Below are positions 1,981-58,331 of a stretch of 64,000 bases of DNA, piece after piece. The notes below the pieces were generated by a model. The model searched no databases and was not told where the DNA came from. It worked only from the letters and a program-made list of their open reading frames with translations. The position numbers were made by a program, and so were the translations under genes. The DNA comes from Eledone cirrhosa (taxonomy: Eukaryota). The stretch's first letter is position 1; each line of letters begins with the position of its first letter. The stretch spans positions 61,442,001 through 61,506,000 of the forward strand of contig OZ024740.1 in NCBI GenBank assembly GCA_964016885.1. Direction: 5' to 3'.

Positions 1981-2900
1981 CCAGATAGACAAAAAGAATA
2001 TTCTATCTAAACTTGTTTATACATAGATCTCCTTACCATGGTTTCGTTTGCAGAAGAATTCTTATTAGAACCACCAATAATTGAACAATCTGTAATACTC
2101 TTCAGGGGAGTTTAAATTCTTCAAAAGCTAAGAAAATATTGACCAAGAAATTATACATACTGTTTCATTTGCCGAGGCTGAACAAAAAGGCCTGTTGTGT
2201 TATGTGATCAAAAATCTCCTAACATATTAGGATTATGTGACAGGCTTATAATCCCGCTGGAAATAGCAGCTAAAAGACTGATACAACTCGACAAATTAAG
2301 AAATAGTATAATATTAATTAAAGGTTAATTAGTCTCTCATACTTAAACATCTCAACGAGAGGAATCACTCAGAGAAGCACTATTATATATCAAATTTTAA
2401 TGAAAAAAAACTATTTATGGAAATACAAACAAGATATAGCCAGACAAAAAATATTCTATCTAAACTCACTTATAAATAGATCTCCGTAGCACGGTTTCGT
2501 TTGCGGAAAAATTCTTATTGGAATAATTCTTATCAATAATTGAAGAATCCACAATACTTGTTTTTTTTCAACATGTTGCCTCGGCAAATGAAACAGTATT
2601 TGGTCAATATTCTCTTAGCTTTTGAAGAATTTAAACTCCCCTGAAGAGTCTTGTGGATTCTTCAATTATTGGTGGTTCTAATAAGAATTCTTCAGCAAAC
2701 TAAACAGTGGTAGGGAGATCTATATATAAGCAAGTTTAGATAGAATAATTTTTGTCTGGGTCTATCTGGTTTGTTCTCCCATAAACAGAGTTTTCTCACT
2801 TAGATTTAGTATATAATATTGCTTATTGCTTTTCTGAGTGATTCCTCTCATTGAGATGCTTAAGTATTAGAGATTAATTAACCTGTAATTAATTTATATA
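1981..2900. mobile_element. Foldback/MITE-like inverted repeat complex
   Basis: 2575-2900 is the reverse complement of both about 1981-2180 and about 2310-2560. Confidence 0.75.
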
Positions 2901-3214
2901 CATATATATATATATATATATACATATACATATGACAGGCTTCAATCAGTTACCATTAACCAATTTCATTCACAAGGCATTCGGCACCTCAAAGCTACAG
3001 AAAAAGACACCCAGGGTGTTACACAGTGAGACAGAACCTGAAATCATGTGGTTAACAAAACAAATTCTCTAACCACATTGCCATTGGGACAGACAGACAC
3101 ATATGATCAAAGGAATTATTTGATCATGTCTACTTGAACTAGATTGAACCCGAAGCAAATCAATAACAACATCCAAAACATTCTGTTCTTAGAAGAAAAC
3201 AAATCTTTTCAAAC

Positions 3215-3349: not shown

Positions 3350-3914
3350 CTGATAAAAGAAAAAAAAATTGTCATATATCATTATGATTTAACATCCCTT
3401 TTCCCTGCTAGGAAACAGCATATATTATTAGACATGTGTGTATATATATCATTGTCATTGTCTTTGCATTATACTTGTCAGCATAAGAAATCAAATGTAA
3501 AGCTTTTATGAGACTATATTTTAGAGAAAGATAGGTTTCTCAACACCAACTCGCATATATGTAAGATACAGAGATTGACAAGTCAAACTGTTGAACATAA
3601 AGAAATGTCACAGCCTGTGCAAATAGTGTCAAATGGAAATCATGGATGGACAAGGGGACACATAATATGGAGATGACGAAGGACCGTGACAAGTGGAAGG
3701 ATGTTGTGCTGAATAGGACCCGTCCCACCCTTGCAAGCAGGGAAAAGCGGACGTAAAATGATGATGATGATATATATATATATAAGCTTCCTCACAATTT
3801 CATATACCAGATTCACTCAAAGCATTGGTTAGCCAGGGCAAAAATAGAAAACATTTGCACAAAGTACCAAATCTGAAACCATGTGGTTTCAAAGCAGACT
3901 CCTTAACTAAACAG

Positions 3915-3965
<51 letters not shown>

Positions 3966-4066
3966 CTGCATCCTCCTGCATTGAACCACCTAGGTACTAT
4001 GACATAACCTGTGTATTTGCTGGCATTAGCGTACATCCGTACGCATATGTTAGTAGATATACTAAA

Positions 4067-4104
<38 letters not shown>

Positions 4105-4410
4105 TATATATATATATATATATAGCTTGAGCCAATTATCTGTGAAATATATGTAATGTAATAAAAACATTTTAAAGTGAAACTTCGTTATCTTATACTA
4201 TTGTAGCAGTACTGAGTGTTCATATTGGTGCCATCTCCAGTAATCAACAACATTACTGAATAATCTATATGGTAGCACATTGCCTGCCATTGTCTGCTTT
4301 ACAACCTTCCTGCTGGTTAGTGGTCACGTGACAGTCATTTTATTCAAAATTTTCACTGACAACAAACAGCTGGGAATTCTTGACTTGAATTTTATTTCTG
4401 GGCGGAGAAA

Positions 4411-6917
4411 GTCTCATCATCATCATCACCGTTTTACGTCCGTTCTTCAGCGCTAGCATGGGTTAAACGGGTTGTCCTGTTGTGGGCAGTGTCTGGTCGG
4501 CTGACCATGCCTTGCTCATACAGGAACTGATTTGGCTTGATTTCTACAGCTGGATGCCCTTCCTAACACCAACCTCATTTACAGTGAGTGCTGGGTGCTT
4601 TTTCGTGGCGCCTACACGTCCACTTTGCAGTGTGGGCTGGGTGCTTTTTTGCCGTGGGGGGTGTGGGAGCATATTGTCTATATGCGTCAGCTTGTACCCA
4701 TGAGAGGTCGGGTACTCTGTATTACTGCGTGACGCCAGAGGTTATGGTCGTGTGTCATTGCCTTTGAGAGGTATAATTGGGTAAGGTCGGCTTTTATCAC
4801 CTCATCCCAGGTCATCTTGGGTCTCCCCACTCCGCGGTTTCCATCAACTTCTAGTGCGCTGCACCTTTTTATGCAGCTGTCATCCTTCATATGCATCACA
4901 TGTCCATACCAGCGCAACCGCCTCTCCTGCACACAGCATTTGATTCCTCTTATGCTCAGTCTCTCTCTCAATTATTTTATGCTTTGACGTTCACGTATAT
5001 TACAGTTACACATCCATCGGAGCATGCAGGCTTCGTTTCTCTCTAATCTACGTAAGTCTTCCACCTTCAGCGCCCAGGTCTCACTACCATGCAACATTGC
5101 TGTTCGCATACACGCATCATACAGTCTGCCTTTCATTCTGAGGGAAAAGCCTTTTGCAGCTAGCAGTGGTAGTAGTTCCCTAAACTTCTTCCATCCCGTT
5201 CTTACCCTAGTTATTGTACTTTCTGAACACCCACCTCCGCTGCTAATTCGGTCACCTAGGTAGCAGAAGAAGTCTACTGTTTCTACAGAGCCCTCCCAGA
5301 GATTGGTGGTACTTGTTTCCTGTGGCTGTTTGCTGCTTGCTGTCCCAGCACAGCTGCTGCATGTGAAGCCTACATTCTTAATTAAGCTTCCTGAGATCCC
5401 GCTACATCTCTTGTGTACCCATTGTTTGCATTTGGGGCAGAGAATGGAGTTCCTACCTACACCTTTCCTACATACTGAGCAAGGCCATTTCCCTGAGGGG
5501 ATCTGGGTTCTGTTTTCTCGTCTACTTACAAGGACCTTAGTCTTTGTCATGTTGACTTTGAGACCCTTTCTTTCTAGTCCCTGCTTCCAAGTTTGGAATT
5601 TATTCTCTAGTTCTACCATAGATTCAGCTATGAGTGCGAGGTCATCAGCATACAGGAGTTCCCATGGGCATCCGGTCTTAAACTCCTCCGTTATTGCCTG
5701 CAGGACTATGATGAACAGGAGGGGGCTAAGAACAGAGCCCTGGTGGACCCCAACCTGTACGCTAAATTCCTCGCTATACTCATTGCTAATCCTAACTTTG
5801 CTGACTGCTCCCCTATACATGGCTTGTACCGCTTTCACAAGCCATTCATCTACTCCTAGTTTTCTAAGAGCCCACCAGATTACAACACGTGGAACTCTGT
5901 CAAAGGCTTTCTCAAGGTCGACAAATGCCAAGTAGAGTGGCTTACTTTTAGCTAGGTACTTTTCCTGTAACTGCCTCACAAGGAAGAGGGCATCAGTGGT
6001 GCCTCTTCCTGGTACAAACCCAAATTGCATCTCGTCTATTTTCACCCGGTCCCTAATCAACTGTGCTATAACTCTTTCTGTTACTTTCATGACCTGGTCC
6101 ATCAACTTTATACCTCTATAGTTTCCTCTATCTAGTGCATCGCCTTTACCTTTGTAGCAGTTGACAATGATGCTACTGCACCAATCTTTTGGTATGACAC
6201 CTAGTATTACCTGGTTAACAATACGTGTGGTTATAGTGTGACCTACAGACCCAGATGCCTTCAGCATCTCGGCAGCTATACCCGATGGACTGGTTGCCTT
6301 CCCCATCTTCATATCTTTGATTGCCTTACTTACTACGTTGCTGCTGACTTGTACTGCTGGCCCCTCTATAGGGTCTACTTGGAGTAGGGTCTCTTCTTCC
6401 CATGCATTCTCCTCATTTAGTAATCTATCATAATGACTCTTCCATGCATCTTTCTTCTTAGCACTTGTGAGGGCAAGCTCACCTTTATCATTCTGGATAC
6501 ACTTCTCTCCAATGACATCACAACTATCTCTGACACACTGCCTTGCAATCTTGAATACCTCCTGTTTATGGTCCTCACGTTGCAAAACATGCTTGAATTT
6601 TCTATCCTCTGCCTCCTAGCTAAATATACTTGTCGCCTAGCTTCCCTCTTGGTCTCTATGTAATGTACCCTGCTCCCCCCGTTCTTCCATTCTTTCCATG
6701 CCTGTCTCTTGGCCTTAACTGCTTCATCTACCTTATTGTTCCACCACCAAGTCACTCTCCTCCTGCTTGAGGTCTTACTCCAGCCACAGACCTCATCCGT
6801 CGCCTCTAGTAAATTATTTTTTAGGAACTCCCAGTTCTCTTCTCCTGATGATATAGGATTTCTTGCGATACTCTACTCAGAGTTTCGTTATTTTCCTAAT
6901 GAAACTGCAGTAGGGAC
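4411..6917 (+). ncRNA. Type-I hammerhead ribozyme (core 6841-6917) whose stem I is split by the RTE at 4416-6840
   Basis: CTGATGA at 6845, a long stem II (TAGGA/TCCTA, GCGA/TCGT, ACTCT/AGAGT), GAAAC-TGCA-GTA at 6901-6912, then GGGAC pairing with GTCTC (4411-4415). Confidence 0.75.
4416..6840 (-). mobile_element. 5'-truncated RTE LINE: RT plus PHD finger, one frameshift (about 6600) and one in-frame stop (4972-4974)
   Basis: ORFs 4972..6585 and 4687..4971 contain [21 protein letters not shown] and LLYADD. 3' UTR, (GAT)n tail and a TCTC target duplication are present. Confidence 0.95.
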
Positions 6918-7091
6918 ATTAAAGTGAGTAAGTAAAGATTTTTTTTCTTAACTTGTTTGCTTTTTCCATAGTTGATATTATTAGGCTCTGAAGCTGTTAA
7001 TTTTATTAACTTTTTAATAGAACCAAACTCGGTATAAGCTGGACACTGTATGTATGTATCTATACTTGTATAGGGATATGCATTCTTCTCC

Positions 7092-7138
<47 letters not shown>

Positions 7139-7181
7139 TGAAGAAAAACCAAGGGTAACAACTTAAATCCATTCTTTAATT

Positions 7182-7617
7182 TCTAAATATGTTTCAATAA
7201 AGGTGACAATATTACATGCATATGTAGACAAGAAGTCAATTGGAAATAGTTAATTAGCAATTATTTACACAAGACATAATGGAGGCACATGGCTTAGTGG
7301 TTAGAGGATTGGCCTTGCAATCGAAAGGTTGTGAGTTCAATTCTCAGACCAGGTGATGTGTTGTTTCCTTGAGCAAGACACTTTATTTCACATTTCCACA
7401 GCTGAGTAAACTGGAGCAATGAGATGATAGGGACTGGGGTTCATATCATTCCACTGCAAAGCACCCAGCACTCATTGTAAATGAGTTTGGTGTTAGGAAG
7501 GGCATCCAGCTGTAGAAATCAAGCCAGAATCAGTTCCCGTTCCACCCTTGCAAGCAGGGAAAAAGCGGACGTAAAATGAAATGATAATGCATGTAACACC
7601 TGTATTTCTTCAGTAAA
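7182..7617 (-). ncRNA. Hammerhead ribozyme motif with a very long stem II, interrupted by a SINE; probably decayed
   Basis: After removing SINE 7282-7589 (TSD ATAATG), the minus strand reads TTTA CTGAAGA AATA.AGGTG TTACATGCAT...ATGCATGTAA..CACCT.TATT GAAAC AT ATT TAGA. Confidence 0.65.
7282..7589 (+). mobile_element. tRNA-derived CORE-type SINE with RTE tail
   Basis: A box TGGCTTAGTGG, B box GAGTTCAATTC, CCTTGAGCAAGACACTT core, tail CCACCCTTGCAAGCAGGGAAAAGCGGACGTAAAATGA, TSD ATAATG. Confidence 0.88.
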
Positions 7618-8524
7618 TATAAGAAGGAATAGAGTTTACCAAATTTAAATAATAATAGATTCCATATCAAATATTGGGTGTAAGGCAAGCATTTAAGGAA
7701 GACTGTACATGAAATGGTTTTAGCATGCAAAGATGTAAGCGATTGTGATTATAGGTTGAGGTAAAAAGCATTACCTCATTATCATTAATAATAGTATTTT
7801 TTCCTTCTATAGTTAGAAGATTTGTTGGTCGGTAGATAAACTAGATAGATAGGAATGTGAAAAACGAGGAGTGAAGTGAAAATTAGTTTAGAGGCAGCAG
7901 TAAGAATTTTGTTAATCAGGTTCGAAGTTCCAATAAACGTAAAGAGCCAAATTGGCTGATCTCATATTATGTTAGTTATAAACATTTGAAAATTCGAAAA
8001 TTTGATTTCACGCAGCAAACTCAAAAGTTATAAAGTATGTTGTTCAATTTGGCAGTGTTTTTCTTTAATATGGCCAGTTAGATATATACACACATATATA
8101 TGTATTTAACAATTCTGTATGTGGCTGAGTGGTTAGAGAATTGGATTTGCAATCATGAGGTTGTGAGTTTGATTCCTGGACCAGGCAATGCGTTATGTCC
8201 TTGAGCAAGACACTTTATTTCACATTGCTTCTTCTGCCTGTATTTGTGACTGGTAGATAGTATTAGCAATTGGAAAGACCGGTTGAAACATTGTTTCCTC
8301 TGTCCGATTTGCTGAGCTCCATCCCACTCGTTAAGCAAATGAGGTCTGGGATCTTGTTGATTGACTGTATATATATGTCTCTGAAGTAAACATATGTATG
8401 CGTGTGTGTGTGCATGTGATACAAAATGGCTGCTTTTTTTATAATTTGGTACTTTATAAGTTGGTTTAATTGGTTAAAAGTTTTGAGAATGATATTTTAC
8501 CACAAATATCAAAAAGAAGCTCAC

Positions 8525-26789: not shown

Positions 26790-29700
26790 CATCATAATAA
26801 TAATAATGAAATTATTGTGTACAGTGCTCAGGTGCACTACAACTCATCAAAGGTGCATGTATAGTACATAGAATAATGTACAAATGTCAGGAAAATGAAC
26901 AGTGTATGAGTCATGATATAATAATAATAATAATAATAATGAAATATTGTGTACAGTGCCCAGGTGCACCACAACTCATCAAAAAGTGCATGTACAGTAC
27001 ATAGGGCAATGCACAAACATCAGTAAAATGAACAGTGCACGAGTCATGATACACACATGTGTGCATGTGTATGGAAGGGGTACATAAGGTGTAGTTTTGG
27101 CGTATTTCAGGAAGCATGAGTGTCTTAAAGGATGCAGTGTCTCGGCAGCTAACAACTGACGCAGGCAGTTTGTTCCATGCTTCAGCAACTCTGAGCGTGA
27201 AAAAATGTCTACGAAAGTCATGGGAGCTGTGCTGTTTTCTGATTTTGTAGGCATGTCCACGTGTGTTAGACACATGGAGATCAAAAAGGTGCTCAGGGTA
27301 GCAATTGGCGAGATGGTTAATAACTTTGTGGGTATTCACCAAGTCCATTGCCAGACGTCGGAGCTTCAATGAATCCATGCCCAGGGAAGCAAGGCGTTCA
27401 GAGTATGGTAGGTGTCTGATGGAGGGTATGCGCTTGGTTGCACGTCTCTGAACAGTTTTTAGGAGGTCAATGTTCTGAGCAAGATAGAGGTTCCAGAGTG
27501 ATGATGCGAATTTCAAGTGTGGTCGTACCATAGCTGTATACAGTTTTAAATAGATGGCTGGAGAGCGGCTAACAAAGGTCTTGTTGAGTGATGCCAAGAC
27601 ACCCTCGGCCTTCTTGACAATCTTAGAGACATGCTTTGTCCAACGCAAATCGCTGCTGACAGTAATGCCCAGGTCACGTTCACAAGAGGACTTCTTGATA
27701 TCAGTGTTGTGGAGGGAGTATGTGGACGCTGGATTTTTCCTTCCAAAATGCATGGTGGTACACTTGTCCACAGCCAGCTTCAGTTGCCTGTCTGTGATCC
27801 ATTGCTGCATTGTGTCCAGGTCTGATTGTAGGAAAGAGTTGTAAATTTCAGGATCAGTCCTTTTGATTTCAAGGTACAGCTTGATGTCATCTGCATATTT
27901 CAGTACCGTGGCATTCTGTAAGTTGGCATCTATGTCATTAATATATGCCACAAACAAAGGGGGACCAAGAACAGATCCCTGTGGTACACCAGATGACATC
28001 TCATATGGTGAAGAATGCTGTCCTAGAACCGTGACTACTTCTTTTCGGCTGAGAATGAAGGATTTCAACCAGTCGGAAAGATCATCCCTCACACCCATTG
28101 CAGAGAGTTTTGCCATAAGTCTTTTGTGTGGCACAGAATTAAAAGCCTTAGCAAAGTCAAGGTAAACAACATCCACCCATGAGCCGCTGTCAGTGATTCG
28201 GGTGATGCCTTCAAGGAACTCGATAAGCTGATCACAGCAGCTGGAGTTAGGGATAAATCCAAACTGTGAGGGCCGGATGAGGCTGTGAGAGCTCCAGAAG
28301 TTCCAAAGTGTTTCTCTGACACAGGATTCCATCAGTTTGGCAATACAGCTAGTAAGACTGACTGGACGATAGTTGACAGGTGACATGCGGTTGCCCTTTT
28401 TGAACAGGAGAATGACACTGGCAGTTTTCCACTGCTCCGGAGTAGCACCATTGTTGAGACAGTATTGAAAGAAGAAAGAAAGCTGGCACAATAGGAAATA
28501 CCCGCCACATTTGAGAAGCAGGTATGTCACACCATCAAGACCAGGGGAGGCATAGTTGCGCTTATTCTTAAGGTGACGTCGCAACATTGCAGGTGTAAAT
28601 TCCATAGTTGTTATGGAATTTGATGTTAGAGATGGTGGAGATGGTACATTCTGGTTTTCAACAGTAAAAATACTTGCATAGCACTCAGCAATGAGTTCTG
28701 CGCATTCTTTGGGAGCGTCAGTGATCTGGCTTGTGTGGGGATTGCGAAGAGGACCAACTGGAGAGTGAGGTCTCTGCTTTGAATGGACATATTTCCAGAA
28801 CACCTTACTGTCAGGATTGGTTGCTATGCACTGTTCAAATTCAAGCACTGCCCTCTTTGTCACTTGCTTGAGATGGTTAGAAGATTTATTCCGCTTTTTT
28901 CTGTTGGCATCTGATTTATGCAGTTTATATTCCCGTTCAGCGTTCCGACGTTCTTTCCTGACAAGTCGGACCGCTGAAGTTTCCCAAATTGCACTTTTGG
29001 GGTGGTTATTTTTCCGCTTATGTGGCACCGATGCTGCACACGCTATCCATATTGAGTCCAGGATGCTCTGGAGTATAGTGTTCACATCTCCAGAGTTATA
29101 CATCTCGTGCCAGTTTGGGCGCTGTAGCTCAGTGCAGTACAAGTTCCAATCCGCCCTCTTCCAATCAAAGCAAGCAGATTGGAGATGGCTCTGGTTTTTG
29201 TTGCTGCCCTCAAGTGCCAGATTGGCAATGATCATAGCATGATCAGAGTCGCCTAGAGGTTCCTCAGTAGTACAACTGATAACCACTTCAGGAATAGTGG
29301 TAAAGATCAGGTCCAAAGTGTTGTCATCTCTTGTTGGAGAGGTGACTACTTGTGACCAGTTTGAGTCCAGCACTAGTTCAAGGAAATCGTTTGCACCTTG
29401 TGGCCAACGAAAGGTTTCCCAATCGATCTCAGGATGATTGAAGTCACCTGCAATAAACACATAAGTGGCTGTTTTCTTGGCAGCAACTCTGAGGATATCG
29501 CAAAGCTGTGTGTCCTGATGGTAGTTTGGGGGGCGATAAACAACACCAAGCAGAAGTGTTGACATGGTCATATGTATGTCACAGAAAAAAACTTCTTCCT
29601 GTGATTCGTTCAAATCAACGCAAGGAATTACCGAAAAGTTTGAACGAACGTAGACCATCACACCACCACCACGGCGATTAATGCGGTCCTTGCGGAAAAG

Positions 29701-30186
29701 GTTGTACCCAGTAATGCTGAAAACCTCATCACAGAGTAAGGAATGTGCCCATGTTTCTGTGATGAAGTCAGGGTCGATGCTTCTGACGTAGGATTCAATC
29801 AGATGTATCTTGTTGCATTAACTGCGAGCATTTAAGGACAACAATTTGTACCCTGCTCACAGTTTATGATGGTGTGTAGAGGGTGGCAGGTTGTTCTGGT
29901 TTAGTTTCCCAGAGTTGTAGCAGTTTTTACGTTGCCAGTTATTGTGGGTAGATCACACTCAGACCAGCTGGTATCTCTCTTCCACGTTTCACCAGCCTTG
30001 ACAAACCTCCAGATCTGCCCATCATCACGCAGACTAAAACTTTCATGTTGTGCTGAGTTCCGATTCAAGGAAGCTGCAGCACGGAGCTTTGGACGTACAT
30101 GGGGTGGTAGGCCTGGGCGTGTTCGGAAGGTAATCCGATTTTCACGCCCAGCTTTAACAGAGGCCAGATGGTATGAGGTTGCCTCA
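26790..30186 (-). mobile_element. CR1-clade LINE with near-intact ORF2 (APE + RT) and a doubled 3' tail
   Basis: 916-aa ORF 26911..29661 with GDFN, VYLDFAKAF, SGVPQGSVLGP, YADD and TRGH...RV..WN.LP. The APE start (ITETW) is at about 29700-29850. TCATCAAATAT target duplication at 26779 and 30187. Confidence 0.95.
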
Positions 30187-35894: not shown

Positions 35895-36449
35895 CCATAT
35901 AAAGTTTTCACGAAGATCAAGTTAGAGCATGAGTGTATTAGAATCCATAGAACAATGAGAAAAACTCAACGCAAGATAACTGTTAAAACAGCAAAATGCC
36001 CTCAATGGCTGCATCAGGTAAAATTTACCTCAAATGAAAGAAATCAGTAGCTAGAAGTGTGTTGGCCTGCTGAAGTGATAGAGGAAAAGGAATAAAGGAA
36101 GAAAATGGACAAGACAAGATCACACAAACATCTTTTAACCTCTTCAGCTCTCTCCCCAACTCTTCCCTTCCTCTGGCCTGGTTACGTAAGAGCCTGGTAA
36201 CATCAGGAGCGGATTGTATAATTAGTTAATCAATAAAAGAAATTATGCAAACACGAATAGAGAATATATTCAATTCAGAGATGGCCAGTAAAATTGGTGT
36301 TAGCATTGCGGCAGACCATCTCTGAATCTCTTATATATTTTGTACACTATTGTAATTATGTGAACCTCTATGTCTATATAACTTTGGGGAGTGCGAGGGA
36401 ATCTAACAGACAGGCAAGCAAGGAATAAATATTTATGAACAATACTTAC

Positions 36450-38121
36450 TTGATATCCATTCTGGTTCACCTGTGCTGGGGAATATCTTCCATAATTGAA
36501 TTCCTCGAAATTGGCTGAAGGGCTTTTTGTTAAAATCACTTCCAATTCTGAACGAGAACTTGAATCAGCAAAAGACTGTCTCGCATTTATATTGACATAT
36601 TCAGAGACAGCTAGTCTATTGTCATCATATTCAGAATGATTAGAATATTCCTGAGGTTTTACTGAAAGTTCCTGAAAAGAGCGTGATGGAAAGGAAGTGT
36701 CGTGTGATGTGCCTTTATAATCATAAAGAATTTGATTGGCACTGTTGTTGAGAATATCTTCTTGGTGTTCTGGAATATTATCTGGTTCAGAGGAAGATGT
36801 GCTCTTTATGGGGTAAGTAGACATTTCTTTCCGTTTGTTAATATCATAGTTGATAGAACCTTCATTAGACAATGTTCTAAACGGATCATCATCATCAGAA
36901 TATTGTGAAAATGTTTGTGAAATGTTTTGGTAATTTGGTGAATAATTCTTTGGGAAGGTTTTGGAGAAAGATGGATGTTTACGTAGTTCATTCATGTGCA
37001 TATTTTGTAACAATTGAAGTGATGTTTGTTTGGGCGTATCAGATTCAGACTGCCGAATTGGAACACTAATGGAATTTGGCCGATCACTAAATTGGGCATT
37101 AGATTTATAAAGAGCCTCAAGATTACCCGTTGACCTTCTCTGGATTGTTGCATATTCAGGATGTGAGTTCTGGTTATATGCCTGGTCACTTTCAATGCTT
37201 AGTTTAGACAAATCAGTTTGAGCACCATACATGTGTTTAGAATAAGGGGCTGCATTACTACTTGTGGGATTTACATTGTTATTTTGATTCAAATTGCTCT
37301 CAGATGAGTTTACAGTATTTGTAGTATGTGAATTTACATCCTTATAATTTGAATAATTGAAACTATCATGAAGTTCTCCATGTGGAGATAAAGAATTTCG
37401 GTTTGAATGTCTTTCTATTACAGCATAATTAATTTCTTTGGGGTAAGTGTCTGTTGATAGTTGTGAATGTGTAGGAGAGATTGGCGGAGGATATGGAAGA
37501 GCATTTGGAGAATTACTAGAACTGTTATTAAATCTATTATCTGTTGAAGGGAAATCTAGTTTTCCATAAATATTATTACTTGTTCCTTTCTGTGATGCTA
37601 ATGAATGGCGAGAGTCATCTAGATAGGGACTTCCTCGTTGGTGTCCATTTTGACTGCCATTAAAGCCTAATGATGAATGAGATTCATTGTCTTGAGAAAT
37701 TTGTTCTGGCGGTCTGTTTGAATATGGGTAAGTTAAAGATGAAGAAGATACTCTTTGATATGGATCATCAAGCAAATAACTGGGTGGCTGAGGTTGGGGA
37801 ATACGATTACCATAATCCCTGTTAATGTCATAGGAACCAGCAGAAGAATAAGAAGATCTGTTGTGAGCAAGATGTTCAGAAGAGGGTATATGTTCCTGGT
37901 GTGAGTGCAAAGAACTTTGACTTGGTGCGGCGTAATTTGGACTGAATGGATTAGATGATGGATACTCAATATTGTTAAAATTATATAAGGAATTATGGCC
38001 ATTGTTAAAATCTTGTGCATAGTTTTCTTCTGGGTAATACTCAGGCGGAGGATCACTTCTTGTAATTGATCCTTCATAATCTGTGGCAAAAGTTTGGCTT
38101 CTGAAAGGTTCTTTAACCAGC
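36450..38121 (-). CDS. PLEKHA7: 1672-nt exon, S/N/P/Y-rich disordered linker
   Basis: Lies in the 609-aa ORF 36300..38129. Long T tract with gtatag acceptor in the correct phase, and a CAA|gtaagt donor in phase 0. Confidence 0.88.
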
Positions 38122-40057: not shown

Positions 40058-40402
40058 CATCATCATTCATCATTTCATTTTTACGTCCGCTCTTCCCTGC
40101 TTGCAAGGGTGAGACGGGAACTGATTCTGGCTTGATTTCTACAGCTGGATGCCCTTCCTAACACCAACCTCATTTACAGTGTGTGCTGGGTGCTTTTTTT
40201 CCGTGGCGCCTACAAATCCACTTTACAGTGGAATGATATGGACCCCAGTCCCTATCATCTCATTTCTACAGCTGAGTAAACTGGAGCAATGTGAAATAAA
40301 GTGTCTTGCTCAAGGAAACAACACATCACCCAGTCTGAGAATTGAACTCACAACCTTTCGATTGCAAGGCCAATGCTCTAACCACTAAGCCATGTGCCTC
40401 CA
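40058..40402 (-). mobile_element. Full-length CORE-type tRNA SINE with RTE tail
   Basis: Same structure as 7282-7589 and very similar to 57757-58086. Confidence 0.9.
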
Positions 40403-40552
40403 TATATATGAGAGCATATATAAACATATACTATATGCTTATATACAATAAACATATGGGTAGCTTTACTATCAAAGAAAAAACATTTTTTATAACAAAA
40501 ACATTTATTTTTCTTTATTTTTCCTCTGTGAATACATCACAGTTGCCATTAA

Positions 40553-46187: not shown

Positions 46188-46603
46188 TATATACAAGATT
46201 TAATATAGAAATAGCTTCTACAGGACTAGAACTGTTTCATTTCATCATCATCATTTCATTTTACGTCCGCTTTTCCCTGCTTGCAAGGGTGGGATGGGAA
46301 CTGATTCTTGCTTGATTTCTACAGCTGGATGCCCTTCCTAACACCAACCTCATTTACAGTGAGTACTGGGTGCTTTTTTGCCGTGGCACCTCCACGACCA
46401 CTTTACAGTGGAATGATAGGGAACCCAGTCCCTATCATCTCATTTCTACAGCTGAGTAAACTGGAGCAATGTGAAATAAAGTGTCTTGCTCAAGGAAACA
46501 ACACATCACATGAAGGAAATCATCAGGAAAGCCCCTAATGATTTCCTTCGAATGAAACAGTTCTAGTCCTGTAGAAGCCATTTCTATATTAAATCTTGTA
46601 TAT
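46188..46603. ncRNA. Head-to-head inverted pair of hammerhead motifs; minus copy interrupted by a SINE, plus copy with a CUAAUGA core
   Basis: Arms 46188-46243 and about 46551-46603 are inverted repeats. Each strand reads CT(G/A)ATGA TTTC CTTC..GAA(A)T GAAACAG ttctagtc CTGTA GAAGC. Confidence 0.68.
46244..46510 (-). mobile_element. 5'-truncated CORE-type SINE inserted in a hammerhead stem II loop
   Basis: Near-identical to 40058-40330. Confidence 0.88.
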
Positions 46604-57720: not shown

Positions 57721-57756
<36 letters not shown>

Positions 57757-58331
57757 CATCATCATTTTACGTCCACTTTTCCCTGCTTGCAAGGGTGGGA
57801 CGGGATCCGATTCTAGCTTGATTTCTACAGCTGGATGCCCTTCCTAACACCAGCCTCATTTACAGTGAGTGCTGGGTGCTTTTTTGCCGTGGCACCTCCA
57901 CGACCACTTTGCAGTGGAATGATAGGGACCCCAGTCCCTATCATCTCATTTCGACAGCTGAGTAAACTGGAGCAATGTGAAATAAAGTGTCTTGCTCAAG
58001 GAAACAACACATCACCCGGTCTGAGAATTGAACTCACAACCTTTCGATTGCAAGGCCAATGCTCTAACCACTAAGCCATGTGCCATCCATATATATATAT
58101 ATGGATGTATAGGAGACACGGTGAAAAGGCTCCAAGTCCACACTGTAAATATGGTTGGTGTTAGAAAGGGTATCCAGCTGTAAAAAAAACCTGTCAGACT
58201 CTTCTGTGCGAGCGAGACATGGTCTCCCGACCTTTGCCGCATCAAATGGAACAAAACCGTCTAACCCATGCTAGCGTGGAAGATGGATGTTAAACGATGA
58301 GGATATATATAGTAATGTAAATGCTAAAGAG
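57546..58331. mobile_element. piggyBac-type MITE carrying a nested SINE (57757-58086, minus) and an RTE 3' UTR fragment (about 58100-58300, plus)
   Basis: TTAA-flanked termini. The MITE body resumes (AGTAATGTAAATGCTAAAGAG) after the inserts. Confidence 0.8.

What the first reader, a model, noticed from the sequence alone, without database searches (positions are those of the whole stretch)
4125..7095. Hidden ~540-bp ribozyme element split by a 2.4-kb RTE inserted into hammerhead stem I
Seen: removing the RTE (TCTC at 4412-4415 and 6841-6844) restores GTCTC-CTGATGA...GAAAC TGCA GTA-GGGAC with a 5-bp stem I. The duplicated TCTC still leaves 4 bp of stem I after the insertion. The unit is bounded by (TA)n at both ends. 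A GTGAGT/GTAAGT donor (6924) with acceptors at 6971 or 7020 follows the cut site. Established: Penelope pLTRs carry a hammerhead and an intron. Inference: this is a solo pLTR or retrozyme with an extra U between the core and a long stem II.
Basis: partly seen in the sequence, partly recalled or inferred. Interest (0 to 1): 0.72.

Follow-up and report, generated by a model that had tools for sequence, protein, structure and literature searches.

The report
Octopus Penelope-element hammerhead split by LINE
Inside an intron of an octopod gene, a hammerhead self-cutting RNA motif and its multicopy flanks lie on both sides of a 2.4-kb LINE; they are likely the end piece of a Penelope-like jumping gene that the LINE split, a known kind of element, and this copy is predicted not to cut.

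Summary
The type I hammerhead (6845-6917) is the only strict hit in the window (0.03-0.05 expected). A 5'-truncated RTE-type LINE fills 4416-6842. Both flanks are multicopy in reads of the host species. The locus lies in an intron of an octopod PLEKHA7-like gene, with the hammerhead antisense to it.

The deciding test, an uninterrupted copy, is still open: no genome is held, and the read tool showed only 15 of 863 joints.

The unit looks like the 3' end (pLTR) of a Hydra-clade Penelope-like element: (TA)n at both ends, the same hammerhead build as Hydra-1_Obim (extra base, A-U first pair of stem II, palindromic stem III), and a last 25 nt that resemble the first bases of Hydra-1_Obim. No Penelope ORF was found, so membership is not proven. 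The extra U is a published trait. The intron is only predicted, and its 6971 acceptor is absent from most related copies. It is not a retrozyme by the tandem criterion. This copy is probably silent: its most stable fold is not the hammerhead. A second long-stem-II hammerhead family lies 1.5-2 kb upstream. Ordinary repeat biology with one unusual stem.

The parts
4088..4124 (.). (TA)n run at the left end (two runs, 4088-4103 and 4105-4124)
4125..4415 (+). Left arm of the interrupted unit (291 nt), multicopy, non-coding; likely 3' UTR part of a Penelope-like element
   Evidence: summed contig depth 157-441 in run X1 against about 12 for the contig identical to this locus; 13 and 19 contigs carry other letters at 4341 and 4383; no ORF similarity
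4140..4189 (+). Degenerate hammerhead-like motif (one base missing in the first core half, weak stem II, GAAAC-TTC-GTT); may be a decayed end of a second element
   Evidence: about 1% chance in this 291-nt stretch under a relaxed, post hoc descriptor; does not fold (z +1.8); first 100-nt bin has higher depth (380 vs 157)
4411..4415 (+). Predicted original 5' strand of hammerhead stem I (GTCTC)
   Evidence: 0.7% of window positions give 5 contiguous pairs with 6913-6917
4416..6842 (-). 5'-truncated RTE-type LINE with (TGA)n tail; RT and PHD-finger; broken by a frame change near 6615 and a stop at 4972
   Evidence: depth in X1 falls from 340,000 to 26,000 to 972 across 6725-7024
6841..6844 (+). 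TCTC: short duplication or microhomology; supplies 4 bp of stem I at the filled site
6845..6852 (+). Hammerhead core, first half (CUGAUGA) plus one extra U
6853..6900 (+). Long stem II (48 nt): A-U first pair, one bulge, 5-bp helix, internal loop, inner hairpin; 6868-6888 can also pair with 6896-6916 and hide the second core half
6901..6917 (+). GAAAC, palindromic stem III (ACUGCAGU), predicted cut after 6912 (GUA), 3' strand of stem I
6924..7020 (+). Predicted 93-97-nt intron-like stretch: donors at 6924 or 6928, branch-like TATTAAC and acceptor at 7020; not shown to be spliced
   Evidence: GTRAGT within 30 nt of a given site: 1.7%; 6971 G>T, 7016 A>C in related copies
7050..7091 (+). Terminal hairpin (7050-7083) followed by GCATTCTTCTCC; 7069-7091 resembles the first bases of Hydra-1_Obim and a motif near the ends of other Hydra consensus sequences
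   Evidence: by eye; z -1.8
7096..7127 (.). (TA)n run at the right end
3359..8524 (-). Host intron of a PLEKHA7-like gene that holds the whole locus; the hammerhead is antisense to the host transcript
   Evidence: consecutive exons at 8629-8525 and 3358-3215

Best explanation
The stretch is likely the 5'-truncated 3' end (pLTR, about 540 nt) of a Hydra-clade Penelope-like retrotransposon that inserted into a (TA)n run in an intron of an octopod gene and was likely split later by an RTE-type LINE landing in stem I of its hammerhead. Shown: the hammerhead motif, the LINE and its ends, the multicopy nature of both flanks, the intron context and antisense orientation. Inferred: that the flanks were one unit; that a Penelope RT/GIY-YIG protein copied it from the 3' end and stopped early; that in full elements the hammerhead cuts read-through RNA after GUA, probably as a dimer through the palindromic stem III, so that the new 5' end runs into the start of the next tandem unit (the last 25 nt resemble the 5' start of Hydra-1_Obim). 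This copy is predicted to be silent: single, antisense to the host RNA, cut off from its upstream sequence, and more stable in a non-hammerhead fold.
For: Hammerhead unique in window, 0.03-0.05 by chance. Five-pair stem I from the base just left of the LINE tail, 0.7% of positions (about 3% by my own estimate if the two bases shared with the tail are discounted). Both flanks multicopy at a similar level in X1, with depth rising 157, 198, 441, then 866, 815, 418, 137 from 4225 to 7095 across the LINE; 13-34 contigs carry variant letters; a second sample's raw reads show the same letters (6971: 4 of 6 reads, 6993: 4 of 6, 7016: 7 of 9). Host is an octopod (66-67% to Octopus, 55% to Argonauta). 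Hydra-clade elements insert in (TA)n, carry a type I hammerhead near the 3' end with AC-n(3-5)-GU palindromic stem III, and Hydra-1_oBim has an extra base then A-U, U-A as first pairs of stem II, as here (PMC8557442 section 11 and files S1, S2). A 20-base gapped pattern shared with the 5' start of Hydra-1_Obim occurs once in the window, at 7069-7091, 0 of 100 shuffles (pattern chosen after seeing the match). Extra base, long helix II, 4-5-bp helix I and palindromic helix III are published traits, and most such motifs occur as single truncated copies (PMC4209133). A second hammerhead family with inverted partial copies ending at (TA)n lies at 1981-2902.
Against: No read or contig joining 4415 to 6845 was seen (15 of 863 joints shown). 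No Penelope ORF: the best Hydra C-terminus match in the left arm is at chance level (P about 0.45 even for the first 65 nt). The 4-bp repeat is shorter than usual RTE duplications. In a repeat-rich genome two unrelated multicopy repeats can flank a LINE; summed depth is not a copy number and X1 may be the source sample. The similarity to Hydra-1_Obim is limited to about 25 nt and was found by eye; its hammerhead and 3' UTR are not otherwise alike in sequence. Stem II (48 nt) and the cut-to-end distance (183 nt) are longer than in the six Hydra consensus sequences read. The first 100 nt of the left arm may belong to another repeat.
Confidence: 0.68

Rival explanations
1. One interrupted unit, but a non-autonomous hammerhead element (retrozyme-like monomer or SINE-like pLTR derivative) with no ORF-bearing parent of its own, moved in trans by a Penelope protein.
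For: No ORF trace in 291 nt upstream of the core; 542 nt is within the 51-972 bp range of animal retrozyme consensus lengths and solo monomers exist (bioRxiv 10.64898/2026.07.22.740005).
Against: Single hammerhead, no tandem repeat in the window; the hammerhead is of the Penelope minimal type, not the canonical 6-bp/4-bp type described for retrozymes; depth falls towards the 5' end as for truncated copies.
Confidence: 0.15
2. The flanks are two unrelated repeats. The hammerhead element was already truncated at stem I, or lost its upstream part when the LINE inserted, and GTCTC on the left is chance.
For: Join not observed; both TCTC copies can be explained partly by the LINE's own letters; right arm has about twice the depth of the nearest left-arm position (866 vs 441).
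Against: Left letters complete a 5-bp stem I in register (0.7% of positions); similar low copy level on both sides, far below the LINE.
Confidence: 0.12
3. The hammerhead is a chance assembly: a (TGA)n-like tail remnant gives CTGATGA and the rest is coincidence, or the right flank is decayed upstream LINE sequence.
For: TGATGAT followed by TA is a common junction in this window; 20 of 43 LINE protein alignments run 6-36 nt past 6842 and one reaches 7091; Rfam finds nothing.
Against: All parts fit together at 0.03-0.05 per window; stem II z -3.25; a profile of the upstream LINE region scores 1.6 bits, E 0.19, on the right flank and the motif spacing is 83 against 61-66 residues (no positive control scored in that test); LINE depth collapses at about 6845.
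Confidence: 0.05

Closest known systems
Hydra clade of Penelope-like elements, in particular Hydra-1_Obim of Octopus bimaculoides (Craig et al. 2021, PMC8557442)
   Same: (TA)n targets; type I hammerhead on the sense strand near the 3' end; palindromic AC-n(3-5)-GU stem III; extra base and A-U, U-A opening of stem II in Hydra-1_oBim; about 25 nt at the unit's 3' end resemble the 5' start of Hydra-1_Obim; a hairpin followed by GCAY and a pyrimidine run near the ends of several Hydra consensus sequences (my reading of file S7).
   Different: No ORF here; stem II is 48 nt against about 12-26 nt in the listed Hydra hammerheads; 183 nt from cut site to end; a splice-donor motif 12-16 nt after the cut site that I did not see in the Hydra sequences read; not the same family as Hydra-1_Obim by sequence.
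Minimal hammerheads (min-HHR) of metazoan PLE pLTRs (Cervera and De la Pena 2014, PMC4209133)
   Same: Extra base between 9 and 10.1, long helix II, 4-5-bp helix I, palindromic helix III, mostly single dispersed copies, low predicted monomer activity.
   Different: A10.1-U11.1 in place of the highly conserved G-C; much longer helix II; donor motif lies 3' of the ribozyme, whereas the D. virilis intron ends at its 5' side.
Non-LTR retrozymes of animals (PMC7229834; bioRxiv 10.64898/2026.07.22.740005)
   Same: Short non-coding AT-rich unit with a type I hammerhead; proposed to derive from pLTRs.
   Different: No tandem repeat, one hammerhead, no circular RNA shown.
RTE-clade LINEs (insert)
   Same: RT domain, microsatellite-like 3' tail, 5' truncation, very high copy number in the host.
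   Different: Only a 0-4-bp duplication where 7-15 bp is usual; clade assignment was not tested against reference RTE proteins.

Membership tests
Type I hammerhead ribozyme | CUGANGA and GAAA core with NUH cut site in type I order | tested here: met
Type I hammerhead ribozyme | Three helices can form | tested here: met
   stem I 4-5 bp, stem II, 2-bp stem III with palindromic loop; but the hammerhead fold is about 9 kcal/mol above the free fold in a nearest-neighbour model that leaves out stem III and tertiary contacts
Type I hammerhead ribozyme | Match to an Rfam hammerhead model | tested here: not met
   long stem II and extra base may explain the miss (inference)
Type I hammerhead ribozyme | Covariation across copies | not testable with these tools
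   no second copy of this family could be fetched
Type I hammerhead ribozyme | Self-cleavage | not testable with these tools
   needs an assay; no RNA run listed
PLE min-HHR | Extra base between 9 and 10.1; palindromic helix III; short helix I | tested here: met
PLE min-HHR | G10.1-C11.1 pair | tested here: not met
   A-U here; A-U also in Hydra-1_oBim and D. willistoni in the published tables
Hydra-clade PLE | RT with RWK and DKT motifs and C-terminal GIY-YIG lacking CCHH | tested here: inconclusive
   no ORF or motif in the unit or window; expected for a 5'-truncated copy, so neither met nor refuted
Hydra-clade PLE | Insertion in (TA)n | tested here: met
   runs abut both ends; weak, 22 such runs in 64 kb
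Hydra-clade PLE | Sense-strand hammerhead near the 3' end | tested here: met
   cut site 183 nt from the right (TA)n
Hydra-clade PLE | 3' end repeats the element's 5' start (pLTR) | tested here: inconclusive
   7069-7091 resembles the 5' start of a different octopus family; the parent element itself was not seen
Hydra-clade PLE | Dispersed multicopy family | tested here: met
   both flanks; not a measured copy number
Penelope pLTR with intron | Spliced intron in the 5' UTR | tested here: inconclusive
   donor and acceptor motifs present; no spliced joint among those shown
Non-LTR retrozyme | Two or more tandem units each with a hammerhead | tested here: not met
   other loci of the genome not testable
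Non-LTR retrozyme | Circular RNA | not testable with these tools
   no RNA run listed
RTE-clade LINE (insert) | RT phylogeny with reference RTE proteins | not tested
   RVT_1 and PHD hits; homologs unnamed; clade name from recalled motifs

The most novel reading that the evidence does not exclude
Octopod Penelope-like elements carry a long-stem-II hammerhead that works as a switch: the stem II insert holds a strand that pairs with the second half of the core and the cut site (10 + 7 bp), keeping the ribozyme off, and a 5' splice site 12-16 nt after the cut couples cleavage to splicing of the element's 5' UTR intron. A second, sequence-unrelated family in the same window has the same layout (about 50-nt stem II, GUA cut, donor-like motif 17 nt after stem I in 1 of 3 copies, about 186-190 nt to the (TA)n end), which would make it a lineage-wide design.
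Probability: 0.1. Interest if true: 0.55.

Novelty: new member of a known kind. Interest (0 to 1): 0.22.

Why it matters
Little as a single locus: nested insertions and truncated Penelope ends with hammerheads are common, and this copy is antisense in an intron. Its use is as a marker for two octopod Penelope-like families whose long stem II escapes Rfam, and which would also exceed the 7-17-nt spacer used for core searches in PMC8557442. The role of Penelope hammerheads is still open (called unclear in PMC8557442; not needed for insertion in vitro in PMC11167929). If the anti-core pairing and the donor next to the cut site are kept across copies, these families would give a testable case of regulated cleavage tied to splicing.

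Tried and rejected
Genome search for uninterrupted copies: no genome held. Window self-search: no second copy of either flank. Read test of the joint: swamped by the LINE; 15 of 863 joints and 24 of 5118 loose ends shown, none informative; the one contig identical to the locus (4164-4439) reaches only 24 letters into the LINE, under the tool's 31-letter rule for bridging. Expression: no RNA holder listed; run X5 is of unrecorded kind and was not used for or against transcription or splicing. Run X4 (another organism) had no depth on either flank away from the LINE; only 112 records were laid. Pattern scans of viral (1 hit), prokaryote (3) and metagenome contigs (119, from 25 of 64 parts): none similar to the flanks; 1 of 124 matches had both stems of 4 bp or more. 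LINE protein against genome contigs, hoping for host contamination: 0 of 18 candidates confirmed. Earlier-findings look-ups by sequence and place: nothing. Hydra ORF end in the left arm: suggestive by eye, chance level when scored. Right flank as upstream LINE sequence: rejected on depth and profile, though the profile test had no working positive control. Antisense copy of the core's 3' half inside stem II: marginal (5.8% of 5000 loop shuffles, 2.1% of 25,524 background windows). Extra pairing of 4402-4410 with 6859-6866 across the joint: not significant (10% of 600 random 20-mers, 13% of TCTC-ending ones). Homology between this unit and the second hammerhead family: not established (2 of 8 tests under 0.05, at 0.015 and 0.033). 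Literature: the 17-nt core motif is in no paper text; 'hammerhead ribozyme' with 'cephalopod' gave 4 papers, 2 listed, none on this element by title or abstract. Repeat libraries such as that of the O. vulgaris annotation (PMC13282606) were not seen and may already hold the family.

Full report
1. Observation. TCTC stands at 4412-4415 and 6841-6844, CTGATGA at 6845-6851, one extra T at 6852, GAAAC at 6901-6905, GTA at 6910-6912 and GGGAC at 6913-6917. Donor-like GTGAGT and GTAAGT start at 6924 and 6928; AG ends at 6971 and 7020. (TA)n runs abut 4125 and 7095. A strict type I hammerhead descriptor finds only this site on both strands of the window; 60 block-wise dinucleotide shuffles give 0.03-0.05 per window. 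Stem II alone folds at -15.3 kcal/mol, better than 200 of 200 shuffles. Rfam gives no hammerhead hit at either threshold.

2. The insert. 4416-6842 is a LINE on the minus strand with RT and PHD-finger domains, an (ATC)n tail on the plus strand like other copies in the window, a frame change and a stop. I call it RTE-type from recalled motifs; I did not test the clade. Its 5' end is cut off between endonuclease and RT. DNA similarity to another copy ends at 6843. Of 43 alignments from the 44 homologs of 780 residues or more (out of 120 fetched), 22 start at or before 6842 (16 exactly there), 20 run 6-36 nt further and one reaches 7091. That last one is not real: a profile of the upstream LINE region scores 1.6 bits on the right flank and the spacing is wrong (that test lacked a working positive control). 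Summed contig depth drops from 340,000 to 26,000 to 972 across 6725-7024. So the hammerhead is not LINE sequence. The TCTC repeat is weak as a target-site duplication: two of its letters on each side can be the LINE's own, and RTE duplications are mostly 7-15 bp (PMC6007223, passages). The empty site reads the same under either view, though a deletion at the site cannot be excluded.

3. Are the flanks one element? No genome is held and the window has no second copy. In run X1 of the host species both flanks are multicopy: summed depth 380 and 157 in the first two bins, 198 at 4341, 441 at 4383, 866 at 6971, 815 at 6993, 418 at 7016 and 137 in the last bin, against about 12 for the contig identical to this locus; 13, 19, 34, 24 and 21 contigs carry other letters at those five places. 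Raw reads of another sample (X21) show the same letters at 6971 (4 of 6), 6993 (4 of 6) and 7016 (7 of 9). The tool warns that summed depth is no copy number, and X1 may be the source sample. The joint 4415-to-6845 was not among the 15 joints shown out of 863, so the direct test is open. Indirect support: 0.7% of window positions give five contiguous pairs with 6913-6917; discounting the two letters shared with the tail, my estimate is about 3%. I put the one-unit reading at about 0.83.

4. Context. Exons of a PLEKHA7-like gene run along the minus strand; the large exon is 66-67% identical to Octopus proteins and 55% to Argonauta. Consecutive exons at 8629-8525 and 3358-3215 put the locus in a 5.2-kb intron. 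The hammerhead and the predicted small intron are antisense to the host RNA; the LINE is sense.

5. What kind of element. Cervera and De la Pena 2014 (PMC4209133; read parts 1-2 of 4 and part 2 of 3 of supplement file 2; file 1 not searchable) list as traits of Penelope hammerheads an unpaired base before stem II, a long helix II, a 4-5-bp helix I and a palindromic helix III, with most motifs found singly and monomers inactive in vitro. So the extra U is known. Craig et al. 2021 (PMC8557442; passages, section 11, supplement parts 2, 52, 53 and search hits) describe the Hydra clade: short elements in (TA)n with a hammerhead near the 3' end, one of them from Octopus bimaculoides. Hydra hammerheads have AC-n(3-5)-GU palindromic stem III; Hydra-1_oBim has an extra base and opens stem II with A-U, U-A, as here. 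By eye, the last bases of the unit resemble the first bases of the Hydra-1_Obim consensus; a 20-base gapped pattern built from the shared letters occurs once in the window, at 7069-7091, and in 0 of 100 shuffles (post hoc, so the chance figure flatters it). It follows a hairpin at 7050-7083 (z -1.8, 12 of 200 shuffles as stable), and a hairpin plus GCAY-pyrimidine run is visible near the ends of four other Hydra consensus sequences (my reading; GCAYTCTTCT occurs once in the window, 0.24 expected). A 3' end that repeats the 5' start is what a pLTR is (PMC3846280, passages; PMC11167929, part 1 of 4 and passages). Against: no Penelope ORF trace, no wider sequence similarity to Hydra-1_Obim, and a longer stem II and tail than the Hydra sequences read. 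Long loop 2 inserts (29-34 nt) are listed for two spike-moss elements in the same table. Retrozymes are defined by tandem units with hammerheads (PMC7229834, passages; bioRxiv 10.64898/2026.07.22.740005, part 1 of 5 and passages, supplements closed); this locus has one unit.

6. How it most likely works. Shown: motif, LINE, multicopy flanks, orientation. Inferred: a Penelope RT/endonuclease nicked the (TA)n run and copied the RNA from its 3' end, stopping after about 540 nt; later the LINE primed at stem I and left a 2.4-kb copy. In a full element the hammerhead would cut read-through RNA after GUA, probably with a partner through the palindrome (duplex -11.7 kcal/mol). This copy is probably silent. 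The hammerhead-constrained fold is -17.4 (empty site) or -15.0 (filled) against -26.7 and -24.1 for the free fold, in which 6868-6888 pairs with 6896-6916 (the model omits stem III and tertiary contacts). That rival helix is only marginally better than chance (5.8% and 2.1% under two nulls).

7. The intron. GTRAGT within 30 nt of a given site has a 1.7% chance in this window. Related copies have T at 6971, removing that acceptor, and C at 7016, which gives a better pyrimidine tract before 7020. In D. virilis Penelope the intron ends at the 5' side of helix I, the reverse order. Splicing was not observed.

8. A second family. At 1981-2902 lie three partial copies (79-85% identical) of another type I hammerhead element in inverted arrangement, ending at (TA)n about 186-190 nt after the cut site, with a stem II of about 50 nt and GTGAGT 17 nt after stem I in 1 of 3 copies; each copy has a defect, which is why the strict scan missed them. 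Homology with the finding is not established. It suggests that long-stem-II hammerheads at Penelope-like ends recur in this genome.

9. Novelty. A new member of a known kind. No paper text holds the 17-nt core motif and the search for hammerhead ribozyme with cephalopod listed 2 of 4 papers, neither on this element by title or abstract. The O. vulgaris annotation reports 31 recently active Penelope-like families and does not mention ribozymes (PMC13282606, passages; supplement listed but not read); its library may hold this family. Earlier notes of this scan describe the same kind of relic in sharks and rays; they are unchecked and not counted as support. Interest 0.22; the switch-plus-splicing reading has about 0.1 probability and would merit 0.55.

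Noticed in passing
window 1981-2178 (-), 2442-2558 (-), 2578-2902 (+), 2307-2380: Second long-stem-II type I hammerhead family: three partial copies in inverted arrangement plus an inverted 3'-end piece, ending at (TA)n 2903; each copy has one core or stem defect; two neighbouring stem II pairs differ in a compensatory way between copies (by eye).
   Followed up: partly
window 4140-4189 (+) and 4203-4231: Degenerate hammerhead-like motif followed by a small hairpin at the start of the left arm; read depth is higher in this first 100 nt, so it may be the decayed end of a third element.
   Followed up: partly
window 6868-6888 against 6896-6916: The stem II insert can pair with the second core half and cut site (10 + 7 bp); reads like a diverged inverted copy; marginal significance.
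   Followed up: partly
window 4323-4333 and 4400-4407: Palindromic GTCACGTGAC and a GC box upstream of stem I, promoter-like by recalled consensus; not tested.
   Followed up: no
window 3215-45812 (-): At least 12 exons of a PLEKHA7-like gene, including a 1.7-kb exon at 36447-38117.
   Followed up: partly
window 26911-29817 (-): 968-aa open frame with endonuclease-like and RT-like motifs, an apparently intact LINE of another clade.
   Followed up: no
window 7290-7590, 40064-40403, 46246-46512, 57754-58090: tRNA-headed SINE family whose tail matches the 3' end of the RTE-type LINE (Rfam tRNA hit at 40331-40394).
   Followed up: no
P0066: A protein labelled Herbaspirillum sp. (MAG) is 78% identical to the LINE RT, likely host DNA in a bacterial bin.
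   Followed up: no
L013 487-543 (-): Only metagenome match with both stem I and stem II of 4 bp or more; GC-rich, unrelated to the finding, possibly a true hammerhead.
   Followed up: no
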